This document shows positions 15,176-18,612 of a stretch of DNA of 42,066 nt, one piece after another (position 1 is the first letter of the stretch; the number at the start of each line of letters is the position of its first letter). A program made the translations under genes and the position numbers. Source of the DNA: a virus (Duplodnaviria > Heunggongvirae > Uroviricota > Caudoviricetes); the IMG/VR virus record IMGVR_UViG_2541047679_000006, positions 1 to 42,066 of that record; one strand, 5' to 3'. The notes under the pieces are model-generated. The model had not been told where the DNA came from. It saw only the letters and a program-made list of their open reading frames with translations, and ran no database searches.

Positions 15176-15557
15176 GCAACAACAGCAAGCCGCAATCAAC
15201 GCCATCCTCGCAACACCACTCGATAAAGACAAGCCAGTTACCATCCGCATTACTGACTACAAGCGCAACCTTGACCAGAACGCAAAATTTCACGCGATGC
15301 TGGCGGATATCGCACGTCAGGTTCAATGGTGCGGAAAATGGTTAAAACCGGAACAATGGAAGGTTTTGTTGATCAGCGGTCATGCAGTGGCAACAAAACA
15401 GGAAGCTGATGTTTTGCCCGGGCTTGAAGGCGAATACGTCAACATTCGCGAAAGTAGCGCGCAGATGAGTGTGAAGCGTATGGCAAGTCTGATTGAGTAC
15501 ACGACAGCATGGGCTATTGGTCAGGGTGTCAGATTTACCGACAGGAGGTACGAATGA
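15147..15557 (+). CDS. ninB: NinB-like recombination protein
   Basis: 136-aa translation (…[26 protein letters not shown]…) parallels lambda NinB (…SLDQNRKLWACLGDVSRQVEWHGRWL…). Confidence 0.75.
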
Positions 15558-15730
15558 GACGACAGCGACGAAGTATCACCGACATCATCTGCGAAAACTG
15601 CAAATACCTTCCAACGAAACGCACCAGAAATAAACGCAAGCCAATCCCGAAAGAATCTGACGTAAAAACCTTCAACTACACGGCTCACCTGTGGGATATC
15701 CGGTGGCTAAGACATCGTGCGAGGAAATGA
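15554..15730 (+). CDS. ninE: NinE-like protein
   Basis: 58-aa translation [58 protein letters not shown] closely matches my recollection of lambda NinE; AGGAGG RBS; ATGA overlap with ninB. Confidence 0.7.
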
Positions 15731-15732
15731 CG

Positions 15733-16677
15733 ATGACTGCGTATTACAACGAAATAGATCCGTATGCAGCGCAATGGCTGCGTAACTTAATTGACGCTGG
15801 AGAAATTGCCCCCGGTTATGTAGATGAAAGGAGTATTGAAGATGTCACACCAGGTGATTTGCGAGGATTTACCCAGCCCCACTTTTTTGCAGGAATCGGA
15901 GTTTGGAGCTATGCACTTAGAAAAGCAGGATGGCCAGACAACAAGAGTATCTGGACAGGAAGTTGCCCATGCCAACCTTTCAGCTCGGCAGGCAAAGGAA
16001 AAGGGGTTGATGACGAGCGGCACTTATGGCCGGCATTCTTCTGGCTTATTGAAAAATGCAATCCTGGCATCGTTATTGGCGAACAGGTTGCAAGCGCAGA
16101 CGGCCTCGCTTGGCTCGACCTTGTACAAACTGACTTGGAAGGTGCGAACTACACCTCTGCAGGTACCGATATTTGCGCTGCGGGCTTCGGTTCTCCGCAC
16201 ATCAGGCAGCGATTGTATTGGGTGGCCTACTCCAACGACAAATATCAACTTTCAGCCAGAAACGCGCAGGGGAATTCAGAACCTATCTGGATGCGTGAGA
16301 CTAGCGGGATGGCAAACTCCTTTAGCGAACGATGCAACAGGTTCAACGCATTGCTACAGCGGAAAAGACAAGAGCGGAACCCCAAGAATCTGCTTGAAAC
16401 TTCCAGGGACGGTGAAGCCATGTACTCATTACCGGTTAACGGCTTCTGGAGAGATGCAGACTGGCTTTACTGTAGAGATGAAAAATATCGTCCAGTTAGA
16501 CCCGGCTCATTCCCGATGGTTAATGGCATTGCCAAAAGCTTGGGACGAGGCAAGTCCACACTGGGAGGAATGGCAAAGCGCAATCAAGATCAGCGAATTA
16601 TTGGATATGGAAACGCAATCAATGCAGAAGTAGCAACGGCATTCGTGAAAGTTTGTATGGAGGTTGTTAATGCTTAG
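15733..16677 (+). CDS. DNA (cytosine-5)-methyltransferase, orphan (no adjacent restriction endonuclease)
   Basis: Translation contains the C5-MTase catalytic PCQ motif (GSCPCQPFSSAGKGKG) and an ENV-like region; RBS GAGGAA positions the ATG at 15733. Confidence 0.8.
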   Translation: MTAYYNEIDPYAAQWLRNLIDAGEIAPGYVDERSIEDVTPGDLRGFTQPHFFAGIGVWSYALRKAGWPDNKSIWTGSCPCQPFSSAGKGKGVDDERHLWPAFFWLIEKCNPGIVIGEQVASADGLAWLDLVQTDLEGANYTSAGTDICAAGFGSPHIRQRLYWVAYSNDKYQLSARNAQGNSEPIWMRETSGMANSFSERCNRFNALLQRKRQERNPKNLLETSRDGEAMYSLPVNGFWRDADWLYCRDEKYRPVRPGSFPMVNGIAKSLGRGKSTLGGMAKRNQDQRIIGYGNAINAEVATAFVKVCMEVVNA

Positions 16678-16846
16678 CCTATCCCAATCCCTTCAATACC
16701 AGAAAGAAAGCGTCGAGCGAGCTTTAACGTGCGCTAACTGCGGTCAGAAACTGCATGTGCTGGAAGTTCACGTGTGTGAGCACTGCTGCGCAGAACTGAT
16801 GAGCGATCCGAATAGCTCAATGTACGAGGAAGAAGACGATGAGTGA
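16670..16846 (+). CDS. ninF: NinF-like zinc-ribbon protein
   Basis: 58-aa translation MLSLSQSLQYQKESVERALTCANCGQKLHVLEVHVCEHCCAELMSDPNSSMYEEEDDE matches my recollection of lambda NinF; GGAGG RBS before the ATG at 16670. Confidence 0.7.
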   Translation: MLSLSQSLQYQKESVERALTCANCGQKLHVLEVHVCEHCCAELMSDPNSSMYEEEDDE

Positions 16847-18456: not shown

Positions 18457-18531
18457 GGGTCAGTCGTATAAAGGTCATTACGGAAGGCTGTTAACCTTCT
18501 TATCGTGGTTCGAGTCCACGCTGTCCCGCCA
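18457..18531 (+). tRNA. tRNA-Asn-like (anticodon GUU); possibly partly degenerate
   Basis: Hand-folded cloverleaf: acceptor GGGTCAG/CTGTCCC with one T-T mismatch, anticodon stem GAAGG/CCTTC with loop CTGTTAA, T-arm CGTGG-TTCGAGT-CCACG, discriminator G, encoded CCA; D-stem has one mismatch. Confidence 0.5.
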
Positions 18532-18536
18532 AATAT

Positions 18537-18612
18537 GCTGGTTTAGCTCCAATGGTAGAGCAGTCGCCTTGTAAGCGAATGGGTAGCGGTTCAAGTCCGT
18601 TAACCAGCACCA
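18537..18612 (+). tRNA. tRNA-Thr (anticodon UGU)
   Basis: Canonical 76-nt cloverleaf by hand: acceptor GCTGGTT/AACCAGC, D-arm GCTC-CAATGGTA-GAGC, anticodon loop CTTGTAA, T-arm AGCGG-TTCAAGT-CCGTT, discriminator A, encoded CCA. Confidence 0.7.

What the first reader, a model, noticed from the sequence alone, without database searches (positions are those of the whole stretch)
15733..16677. Orphan C5-cytosine methyltransferase inserted between ninE and ninF
In lambda, ninE and ninF are adjacent. Here a 314-aa C5-MTase with the PCQ catalytic motif sits between them, and no restriction endonuclease gene is nearby. Phage orphan MTases typically protect the phage genome from host restriction or act epigenetically; the target specificity is not predictable from sequence alone.
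Basis: partly seen in the sequence, partly recalled or inferred. Interest (0 to 1): 0.55.

Follow-up and report, generated by a model that had tools for sequence, protein, structure and literature searches.

The report
Phage cytosine methylase with hidden nested gene
The gene between ninE and ninF is a phage cytosine-methylase gene, but the annotated protein looks like only half the enzyme: a second protein, conserved in relatives, is encoded in another reading frame inside the same DNA and probably supplies target recognition.

Summary
ORF 15733-16677 (+, 314 aa) lies between ninE and ninF. It matches Pfam PF00145 and phrog_363, carries the PCQ motif, and has no endonuclease gene nearby.

Two things were missed.

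1. Motif I (FFAGIG) sits after motifs II and III. Moving residues 44-68 to the N-terminus restores a canonical Pfam match in five family members.

2. The 314-aa protein has no constrained recognition domain and no motif IX. A 263-aa ORF (15842-16633, +1 frame) lies wholly inside the gene.
- In 57 distinct homologues this frame has no stops across the central 60% of the gene, against about 159 expected. 94 neighbouring genes show no depletion.
- It has a conserved Shine-Dalgarno sequence and ATG, kept by synonymous codon choice.
- Against a 90%-identical relative, 25 of 31 central substitutions are silent only in the +1 frame.
- Its product carries WxTP modules and a motif IX-like tail.

The architecture matches M.EcoHK31I, the one characterised C5 methylase whose beta chain is nested in the alpha gene. 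Most likely this is an orphan, two-polypeptide phage methylase that protects phage DNA. Activity, subunit assembly and target sequence are untested.

The parts
15733..16677 (+). alpha ORF (frame 0), 314 aa: the annotated 'DNA cytosine methyltransferase'. It is the catalytic large-domain subunit. An alternative start at ATG 15727 overlaps the ninE stop.
   Evidence: the AF2 model has pLDDT >90 for about residues 1-70, 100-170 and 300-310; Foldseek top hits are M.HhaI, M.HaeIII and DNMT1
15842..16633 (+). beta ORF (+1 frame, same strand), 263 aa, wholly nested in alpha. The longest version starts at ATG 15824 (269 aa). It is the proposed target-recognition / motif IX subunit.
   Evidence: +1-frame stops are absent from deciles 3-8 in 57 homologues against 159 expected; controls give 1256 observed vs 1273 expected; phrog_1008 2e-23 and phrog_31772 2.3e-18; 2783 homologues; annotated as a second CDS in K1ind2, fTaEco01 and PhiXhv-28
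15829..15833 (+). AGGAG Shine-Dalgarno sequence, 8 nt upstream of the beta start codon ATG 15842. It is built from the alpha codons R33 (AGG) and S34 (AGT).
   Evidence: Synonymous-codon bias across homologues: R33 is AGG or CGG in 42/58, S34 is AGY in 50/58 (49% gene-wide), D37 is GAT in 48/53 Asp codons (43% gene-wide)
15748..15759 (+). alpha motif II (NEID, residues 6-9), at the extreme N-terminus
   Evidence: TIGR00675 aligns residues 6-183 to profile positions 27-177; residues are invariant or nearly so in alignments A1 and A2
15835..15846 (+). alpha motif III (IEDV, residues 35-38). It also encodes the beta start codon.
15862..15936 (+). displaced beta1-alphaA unit of alpha (residues 44-68), carrying motif I (FFAGIG, residues 51-56, nt 15883-15900). 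It lies after motifs II and III instead of before them.
   Evidence: Moving it to the N-terminus raises the PF00145 score from 52.8 to 76.2 bits and extends the match to profile position 6. The same holds for N15 gp58, K1ind2 ORF29, PhiXhv-28 and L083, with gains of 10-24 bits.
15961..15984 (+). alpha motif IV (SCPCQPFS, residues 77-84) with catalytic Cys80
16078..16089 (+). alpha motif VI (GEQV, residues 116-119), a variant of the ENV motif
   Evidence: E117, Q118 and V119 are invariant; aligned to M.HhaI ENV
16195..16212 (+). alpha motif VIII (PHIRQR, residues 155-160)
16228..16437 (+). central segment. In frame 0 it is an unconstrained linker (alpha residues 166-235). In frame +1 it holds the constrained WxTP modules of beta: WPTP at 16223-16234 and WQTP at 16310-16321.
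   Evidence: Against L092, 25 of 31 substitutions are synonymous in +1 only and 2 in frame 0 only; per-frame conservation profile; AF2 pLDDT 45-66 in frame 0
16174..16425 (+). recombinant cassette: 95-98% nucleotide identity to a P2-like prophage gene (L003) whose flanks are only 56-75% identical. It coincides with beta's recognition modules.
   Evidence: context
16496..16546 (+). beta motif IX-like tail, LDPAHSRWLMALPKAWD (beta residues 219-235)
   Evidence: It is more conserved than the overlapping frame-0 residues (0.70 vs 0.31). It is nearly invariant in alignment A3. It is the only region hhalign aligns to CheeseTouch gp88 residues 282-309 (E 0.0013, probability 18%), and that region lies inside gp88's PF00145 match.
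16438..16512 (+). alpha conserved hairpin region (NGFWRDADWLYCRDEKYRPV..., residues 236-260)
   Evidence: Frame-0 identity is 0.5-0.7 across the family; predicted strands 243-246 and 252-255
16603..16623 (+). alpha motif X (GYGNAIN, residues 291-297)
15554..15730 (+). ninE, the upstream neighbour
16670..16846 (+). ninF, the downstream neighbour; its start overlaps the alpha stop by 8 nt

Best explanation
This is an orphan phage DNA C5-cytosine methylase made of two polypeptides encoded in two reading frames of one 945-bp gene.

Frame 0 gives alpha (314 aa). It holds the AdoMet-binding and catalytic large domain, with motifs in the unusual order II, III, I, IV, VI, VIII ... X, catalytic Cys80, and a free-evolving linker in the middle.

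Frame +1 gives beta (263 aa), started from its own AGGAG-N8-ATG inside the motif III codons. It carries a helix-hairpin region, two WxTP modules and a motif IX-like tail (LDPAHSRWLMALPKAWD).

By analogy with M.EcoHK31I, alpha and beta would assemble into the active enzyme. Beta would supply the small-domain and target-recognition functions that alpha lacks.

The gene sits in the nin region, so by lambda biology it should be transcribed as a delayed-early gene during lytic growth. The enzyme would then methylate replicating phage DNA and protect it from type II restriction in the next host.

Shown here: both ORFs exist, both are kept open, and each is under purifying selection in different segments. 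Beta has a conserved translation start. The motif order is permuted.

Inferred: beta is translated, alpha and beta associate, beta determines specificity, 5mC is the product, and the expression timing is as in lambda.
For: Alpha is a C5-methylase large domain.

Beta is a real coding frame:
- A synonymous-codon shuffle gives 17 core +1 stops against 265 expected in 60 homologues.
- Deciles 3-8 have 0 stops against 159 expected, while 94 neighbouring ORFs give 1256 against 1273 and none has an open +1 run of 75% or more.
- The SD and ATG are conserved through biased synonymous codons.
- Beta is more conserved than alpha at GWPTP, across alpha residues 171-200, and at RWLMALPKAW.
- Against L092, 25 of 31 substitutions in codons 166-235 are synonymous only in +1. 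In codons 1-36, 12 of 15 are synonymous only in frame 0.

Alpha is also kept open through the centre: 0 stops against 104 expected.

The WxTP/PTP modules belong to the methylase. In mycobacteriophage Rebeuca, gp80 is the catalytic domain and gp79 is in the +1 frame with a 50-nt overlap. gp79 carries PTP modules, motif IX and motif X in a single frame.

A cassette exchange covers exactly the module region.

[quoted passage not shown] Alpha has motifs I-VIII and X, beta has motif IX, and both are needed. Silent removal of beta's start codons abolishes activity in vivo (PMC2836561; PMC3404938).
Against: There is no expression or activity data.

AF2 models beta poorly, with mean pLDDT 44. Beta has no hit in Pfam, NCBIfam, PADLOC or the PDB.

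Grafting beta's modules and tail between alpha's core and motif X added only about 3 bits to the PF00145 score and did not extend the match to motifs IX-X. The motif IX assignment therefore rests on a short hhalign match (probability 18%) and on visual similarity.

Homology to M.EcoHK31I itself could not be tested, because its sequence is not held. For M.EcoHK31I the literature places the predicted recognition domain in alpha, not beta.

One relative (L092) has a nonsense codon in alpha's linker with beta intact. Continuity of alpha is therefore not universal.
Confidence: 0.65

Rival explanations
1. Alpha alone is a complete monomeric orphan C5 methylase. It would use the conserved hairpin (residues 236-260) as a minimal recognition element. 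Beta would be a genuine but functionally separate overprinted protein, for example a DNA-binding or anti-defence factor or a regulator.
For: Alpha has all AdoMet-binding and catalytic motifs plus motif X. Its hairpin region is conserved. Beta shows no detectable similarity to solved methylase small domains.
Against: The region where every solved C5 methylase has its recognition domain is unconstrained in alpha. In Rebeuca, beta-type modules are in frame with motifs IX and X. The M.EcoHK31I precedent shows such an alpha is inactive alone. In the phage collection, about as many records hold beta as hold a full-length alpha: 243 records match beta against 224 holding most of alpha.
Confidence: 0.14
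2. A single polypeptide is made by programmed ribosomal frameshifting: frame 0 to +1 after motif VIII, and possibly back by -1 before motif X. This would recreate a canonical enzyme of core, recognition domain, motif IX and motif X. The two full-length ORFs would be by-products.
For: The selective constraint switches from frame 0 to +1 and back to frame 0 along the gene. The beta motif IX-like tail lies 20-36 codons upstream of alpha motif X, which is the canonical spacing.
Against: The +1 frame is open from about codon 30, roughly 130 codons before any useful shift site, and it has its own conserved SD and ATG. +1 stops are frequent just upstream of that start. Frame 0 is kept open through the linker. 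I saw no slippery heptamer at either junction of the window sequence (by eye on the sequence; no motif scan was run). The junction regions are also poorly conserved and rich in indels.
Confidence: 0.08
3. The enzyme uses the C5-methylase fold but installs something other than a methyl group, or is catalytically inactive. This would be a consequence of the rearranged cofactor pocket, with motif I displaced.
For: The motif order is non-canonical. A natural C5-carboxymethyltransferase (PDB 8yf3) is among the closest structural neighbours.
Against: All cofactor-binding motifs (FxGxG, the motif II Glu, the motif III Asp, the motif X GNA) and the catalytic residues are conserved across thousands of homologues. 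No partner genes for hypermodification lie next to the gene.
Confidence: 0.05
4. The +1 ORF is not translated. Its openness would reflect some nucleotide-level constraint such as RNA structure or codon-pair bias.
For: No expression data exist. AF2 confidence for beta is low.
Against: No depletion is seen in 94 control genes from the same contigs. The substitution pattern is codon-periodic in the +1 frame. The SD and ATG are conserved. Amino-acid motifs are conserved down to about 30% identity across phages of many hosts.
Confidence: 0.03

Closest known systems
M.EcoHK31I (E. coli HK31, YGGCCR; Lee, Kam & Shaw 1995, as described in PMC2836561 and PMC3404938)
   Same: It is a C5 methylase made of two polypeptides, with beta encoded entirely inside the alpha gene in another reading frame. 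[quoted passage not shown] Both are required for activity.
   Different: It is part of a restriction-modification system, whereas this gene is an orphan in a phage nin region. The literature places the predicted recognition domain in alpha; here that region of alpha is unconstrained and the modules are in beta. Motif I is displaced here; the order in M.EcoHK31I is not known to me.
M.AquI (alpha/beta; Karreman & de Waard 1990, cited in PMC3404938) and mycobacteriophage Rebeuca gp80/gp79
   Same: Both are natural split C5 methylases. The catalytic half and the recognition half are separate ORFs in different frames that overlap.
   Different: Their overlap is short (50 nt in Rebeuca), and beta carries the recognition domain plus motifs IX and X. 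Here beta is completely nested (792 nt) and motif X stays in alpha.
Phage N15 gene 58, K1ind ORF29 with ORF28 ('Mte8-like'), epsilon15-like and eiAU methylases (phrog_363 with phrog_1008 and phrog_31772)
   Same: They belong to the same family. They share the N-terminus MxxYYNE..., the displaced motif I and the nested +1 ORF.
   Different: They are 36-55% identical to this gene and have different numbers and types of WxTP modules. Only a few records annotate the nested ORF. None has been characterised, as far as the searched literature shows.
Monomeric C5 methylases (M.HhaI, M.HaeIII, Dcm; Pfam PF00145)
   Same: They share the catalytic fold and motifs IV, VI and VIII. They are the best structural matches.
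   Different: They have the motif order I-X in one chain, with the recognition domain and motif IX in frame.
Permuted methylases (M.BssHII, plant DRM2; from my own knowledge)
   Same: The order of conserved motifs is rearranged within the same fold.
   Different: Those enzymes move blocks VI-X or IX-X. Here only the beta1-alphaA (motif I) unit is moved, to a position between motifs III and IV.
Multispecific Bacillus phage methylases (SPR, phi3T; from my own knowledge)
   Same: They are phage orphan C5 methylases whose variable region is a tandem array of exchangeable recognition modules.
   Different: Their modules are in frame in a single chain, and no sequence similarity was shown.

Membership tests
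DNA C5-cytosine methyltransferase (PF00145) | Motif IV with the catalytic Pro-Cys | tested here: met
   PCQ is at alpha residues 79-81 and aligns to M.HhaI PCQ. It is invariant in 76 homologues.
DNA C5-cytosine methyltransferase (PF00145) | Motifs VI (ENV) and VIII (QxRxR) | tested here: met
   EQV is at 117-119 and HIRQR at 156-160. E117, Q118, V119, R158 and R160 are invariant.
DNA C5-cytosine methyltransferase (PF00145) | AdoMet-binding motifs I (FxGxG), II and III, in N-terminal order I-II-III | tested here: not met
   All three are present, but the order is II (6-9), III (35-38), I (51-56). The native Pfam match starts at profile position 64. The de-permuted sequence matches from position 6 with 23 more bits.
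DNA C5-cytosine methyltransferase (PF00145) | Motif X (GNAV-type) at the C-terminus | tested here: met
   GYGNAIN is at 291-297; Y292, G293 and N294 are nearly invariant in A2 and A295, I296 invariant in A1.
DNA C5-cytosine methyltransferase (PF00145) | Recognition domain and motif IX between motifs VIII and X in the same polypeptide | tested here: not met
   Alpha residues 166-235 are unconstrained at the amino-acid level, poorly conserved and modelled with low confidence. No motif IX is present in frame 0.
M.EcoHK31I-type two-polypeptide C5 methylase | Beta ORF nested in an alternative frame of the alpha gene | tested here: met
   Beta (15842-16633) lies inside alpha (15733-16677).
M.EcoHK31I-type two-polypeptide C5 methylase | Alpha carries motifs I-VIII and X; beta carries motif IX | tested here: inconclusive
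   The alpha part is met. Beta's LDPAHSRWLMALPKAWD aligns to the motif IX region of CheeseTouch gp88 with only E 0.0013 and probability 18%. Pfam does not recognise it.
M.EcoHK31I-type two-polypeptide C5 methylase | Both polypeptides are required for activity and associate | not testable with these tools
   This needs expression and methylation assays. A model of the complex could not be run.
M.EcoHK31I-type two-polypeptide C5 methylase | Sequence homology to M.EcoHK31I alpha and beta | not tested
   The sequence is not in the held collections, and the original paper (PMC306636) is not held.
Type II restriction-modification system | A cognate restriction endonuclease gene adjacent to the methylase | tested here: not met
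   The neighbours are NinB, NinE, NinF, a DUF1364 protein, RusA, NinH and Q. Plasmid and phage relatives showed no endonuclease partner in the annotations under the matches; flanking genes were not examined.
lambda nin-region gene set | Position between ninE and ninF on the rightward delayed-early operon | tested here: met
   Transcription timing is inferred from lambda biology and was not tested.

The most novel reading that the evidence does not exclude
A whole clade of phage and prophage C5 methylases may be obligatorily encoded in two frames. The clade has thousands of genes in phages of Proteobacteria, and apparently also includes canonical-order enzymes of actinophages such as KBG, CheeseTouch and Rebeuca.

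In this reading, the specificity-determining part is a hidden +1-frame protein built from exchangeable WxTP modules. These modules recombine as cassettes between unrelated phages and may confer multiple specificities. Current annotation (PGAP, Pfam, NCBIfam) and specificity prediction would then see only the catalytic half.

This would also be one of the longest and most widely conserved same-strand overlapping gene pairs in dsDNA phages.
Probability: 0.45. Interest if true: 0.75.

Novelty: new variant of a known kind. Interest (0 to 1): 0.6.

Why it matters
As a plain orphan phage methylase, the finding would be routine. It gains weight for four reasons.

1. **Annotation.** Standard annotation discards nested ORFs, so the likely recognition subunit is missing from nearly all records. 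PGAP annotates only alpha in the 11 E. coli genomes that carry this gene. Neither Pfam nor NCBIfam has a family for beta.

2. **Specificity prediction.** Predicting target specificity, or cloning such methylases from the annotated CDS with recoded or codon-optimised DNA, would silently destroy beta.

3. **Generality.** The M.EcoHK31I curiosity of 1995 appears to be the visible tip of a large, mostly phage-borne family. That family offers a natural system for studying how two proteins share 792 nt under alternating constraint, and a supply of natural split methylases of the kind already used for targeted methylation (PMC2836561).

4. **Fold plasticity.** The displaced motif I adds a new permutation type to the C5-methylase fold.

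Tried and rejected
**Chimeras.** I built chimeras of alpha core, beta modules and tail, and alpha motif X. PF00145 gained only about 3 bits and did not reach motifs IX-X. The motif IX call therefore stays unproven.

**Searches with beta.** A profile search of the beta family against the PDB gave no hits. Pfam, NCBIfam and PADLOC gave none either.

**Structure of beta.** The AF2 model has pLDDT 44 and is unusable for a fold search.

**In-frame fusions.** I looked for a natural in-frame fusion of the catalytic core with WxTP modules. None was found among 269 alpha homologues or among the best 120 homologues of the CheeseTouch +1 product. L072 looked like one, but it is a frameshifted copy in which alpha's linker runs into beta's tail. 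Rebeuca gp79 gave the useful in-frame case for modules plus motifs IX and X instead.

**Literature.** 'Mte8' leads only to an annotation label. No paper on overlapping frames in phage C5 methylases was found. The original M.EcoHK31I paper and the supplement of PMC2836561 are not held.

**Other attempts.**
- A plasmid search for relatives linked to an endonuclease found none in the annotations under the matches.
- No sufficiently close relative of CheeseTouch was available for a pairwise substitution test.
- The 3D strand order of the permuted alpha could not be checked, because model coordinates are not exposed.

**Frameshifting.** I rejected programmed frameshifting as the main explanation. 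The reasons are the conserved internal SD and ATG, and the fact that the +1 frame is open about 130 codons upstream of any useful shift site.

Full report
**1. The observation**

The window has an ORF from ATG 15733 to TAG 16677 (+ strand, 314 aa) whose product contains PCQ at residues 79-81. It matches Pfam PF00145 (5.2e-14), TIGR00675 dcm (6e-11, below its cut-off) and phrog_363 'DNA methyltransferase' (1.7e-90, full length).

The upstream gene is ninE (15554-15730) and the downstream gene is ninF (16670-16846). Nearly identical DNA occurs in 11 of 5426 complete E. coli genomes. There PGAP calls it 'DNA cytosine methyltransferase', and in the two loci I inspected the order is NinE | methylase | NinF in otherwise mosaic lambdoid prophages.

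In many lambdoid phages (HK620, HK97-like, mEp235 and others) the flanks match but the methylase is missing. It is therefore an inserted gene. No endonuclease gene lies nearby.

**2. First departure from a canonical enzyme: motif order**

Pfam matches only profile positions 64-211, and TIGR00675 aligns residue 6 to profile position 27. The protein starts with YYNEID (motif II), followed by IEDV (motif III). Only then come FFAGIG and a helix (motif I, residues 51-64), and then PCQ.

Every close homologue and the best 150 of 16,111 cluster representatives start the same way.

Moving residues 44-68 to the N-terminus in silico raises the PF00145 score from 52.8 to 76.2 bits and extends the match to profile position 6. 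The same operation gains 10-24 bits in N15 gp58, K1ind2 ORF29, Xanthomonas phage PhiXhv-28 and a 66%-GC metagenomic member.

AF2 predicts the same number of strands and helices before PCQ as in M.HhaI, with pLDDT above 90. Foldseek returns M.HhaI, M.HaeIII and DNMT1 as best matches.

The permutation is well supported at the sequence level. The 3D strand order could not be inspected.

**3. Second departure: a nested gene**

A 269-codon ORF (15824-16633) lies in the +1 frame of the same strand. I fetched 80 homologous loci from IMG/VR (41-99% identity) and applied three tests.

*Stops.* With amino-acid sequence and codon usage held fixed by a synonymous shuffle, 265 +1-frame stops are expected in the gene cores and 17 are seen. 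By decile of gene length, the observed counts are 131, 9, 0, 0, 0, 0, 0, 0, 3, 75. The expected counts are 102, 41, 13, 50, 29, 21, 25, 22, 28, 49. Among 94 neighbouring ORFs of at least 250 aa from the same contigs, 1256 stops are observed against 1273 expected, and none has an open +1 run covering 75% or more of its length.

*Start site.* The conserved start is ATG 15842, formed by alpha codons D37-V38, with AGGAG eight bases upstream, formed by R33-S34. Across homologues R33 is AGG or CGG in 42 of 58. S34 is AGY in 50 of 58, against 49% gene-wide. D37 is GAT in 48 of 53 Asp codons, against 43% gene-wide.

*Substitutions.* I compared the window with a 90%-identical lambdoid prophage (L092). 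In codons 1-36, 12 of 15 changes are silent only in frame 0. In codons 166-235, 25 of 31 are silent only in the +1 frame and 2 only in frame 0. In codons 236-300, frame 0 dominates again. Family-wide conservation shows the same alternation. The +1 product is better conserved than frame 0 at GWPTP, across alpha residues 171-200, and at RWLMALPKAW.

Frame 0 is nevertheless kept open through the centre: 0 stops against 104 expected when beta's codons are shuffled. This carries an ascertainment caveat, because the genes were selected for an intact alpha. One relative, L092, has a nonsense codon there.

I conclude that two proteins are maintained: alpha (frame 0) and beta (+1, 263 aa).

**4. What beta is**

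Beta has no Pfam, NCBIfam, PADLOC or PDB match. AF2 models it poorly (pLDDT 44).

It does hit phrog_1008 and phrog_31772, both labelled 'DNA methyltransferase'. It has 2783 database homologues of about 290-300 aa, called 'hypothetical' where a gene caller happened to pick that frame. It is found in about as many phage records as hold a full-length alpha: 243 records match beta against 224 holding most of alpha. These include N15, K1ind, eiAU, and Xanthomonas and Rhodobacter phages.

A few records annotate both frames, such as K1ind2 ORF29/ORF28 'putative Mte8-like protein'. No paper explains that label.

Beta's conserved parts are a helix-hairpin (…LANRLQ…GSTLYKLTWK…LRASVRRTS), one to five WxTP modules (two here), and a tail RLT..GE…QLNPAHSRWLMGLP..WD.

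Indels in alpha's 'variable region' correspond to the gain and loss of beta modules.

The module region (nt 16174-16425) is 95-98% identical to that of a P2-like prophage gene whose flanks are only 56-75% identical. It therefore moves as a cassette.

**5. Link to the methylase function**

KBG gp84 and CheeseTouch gp88 have the canonical motif order, and their +1 frames also contain WPTPTAS…/LPTPTASD modules. In CheeseTouch the motif IX and X region is in frame 0 and lies inside its PF00145 match. The CheeseTouch +1 product has 351 database homologues, none of the 120 listed fused to PF00145.

The only region of beta that hhalign aligns to CheeseTouch gp88 is the tail, against the motif IX region. 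The score is weak (E 0.0013, probability 18%).

The modules therefore belong to the C-terminal, small-domain half of this methylase clade. The motif IX identity of the tail is likely but not proven, because the chimera test with Pfam was negative.

**6. Known precedent**

[quoted passage not shown] Removing beta's start codons by changes silent in alpha abolishes methylation in vivo, and beta in trans restores it (PMC2836561; PMC3404938).

The gene here has the same architecture.

It also differs. It is an orphan in a phage nin region. Motif I is displaced. The constrained variable modules are in beta, while alpha's central part is a neutral linker. Sequence homology to M.EcoHK31I could not be tested.

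**7. Mechanism proposed**

One delayed-early transcript is translated in two frames. Alpha binds AdoMet and performs catalysis through Cys80. Beta docks on alpha and reads the target sequence. The heterodimer methylates phage DNA before packaging, which protects it from restriction in the next host.

The coding and selection claims are shown here. Assembly, activity, product and timing are inferred.

Rivals:
- alpha is self-sufficient and beta has an unrelated function (0.14);
- a frameshift-fused single chain (0.08), disfavoured by the internal SD and ATG and by the +1 frame being open about 130 codons too early;
- a non-methyl or inactive enzyme (0.05);
- an untranslated +1 ORF (0.03).

**8. 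Verdict**

The gene is not a routine Dcm-like singleton. It is a variant of the rare M.EcoHK31I design, and it appears to be the rule for a large phage family that annotation pipelines only half see. Experimental confirmation is simple and is described under the next steps.

Noticed in passing
window 18457-18531 and 18537-18612: tRNA-Asn (GTT) and tRNA-Thr (TGT) genes lie between the Q antiterminator gene and the holin gene. The same pair is annotated in the ST131 prophage L002.
   Followed up: partly
L092 2892-3839 (Logan SRR7170585 contig, lambdoid prophage): This is a 90%-identical copy of the gene. Alpha has a nonsense codon (GAA to TAA) at codon 183 in the unconstrained linker, while beta is intact. 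The gene caller there chose beta. It may be a pseudogene, a sequencing error, or a sign that alpha's continuity is dispensable.
   Followed up: partly
L072 3989-5008 (IMG/VR UViG_2767802154_000001): This copy has a frame switch near the end of the module region. Alpha's linker runs into beta's motif IX-like tail, and beta is truncated. It is probably a frameshift mutation or a sequencing error.
   Followed up: partly
L093 459-1452 (Mycobacterium phage Rebeuca gp80/gp79); L090 1291-2004 (KBG gp84); L091 1309-2343 (Gordonia phage CheeseTouch gp88): Actinophage C5 methylases with the canonical motif order also carry PTP-type modules in the +1 frame. Rebeuca is annotated as a split enzyme with a 50-nt overlap. 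In CheeseTouch the modules are in +1 but motifs IX and X are in frame 0. Nested or split coding may therefore extend far beyond the family studied here.
   Followed up: partly
L003 4572-9419 (P2-like prophage, Logan ERR13166097): The homologous alpha/beta gene sits between a Dam-like (MethyltransfD12) methylase gene plus a small HTH gene and the replication gene A. Its module cassette is nearly identical to the window's, although the catalytic core is only about 65% identical at the DNA level.
   Followed up: partly
window 15727-15735 and 16664-16677: The genes are tightly packed. An in-frame ATG at 15727 overlaps the ninE stop (ATGA), and the ninF start (ATG 16670) overlaps the end of alpha by 8 nt. 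This suggests translational coupling along ninE, alpha and ninF.
   Followed up: no
L001 3298-3825 (APEC O2-211 prophage): In one of the E. coli prophages carrying this gene, a phage N6-adenine methyltransferase gene lies between ninB and ninE, so that phage carries two methylases in the nin region. The window lacks it.
   Followed up: no
fold search of the alpha model: PDB 8yf3, a natural DNA cytosine C5-carboxymethyltransferase bound to Cx-SAM, ranks fourth among structural neighbours. This is a reminder that the fold does not guarantee methyl transfer.
   Followed up: no
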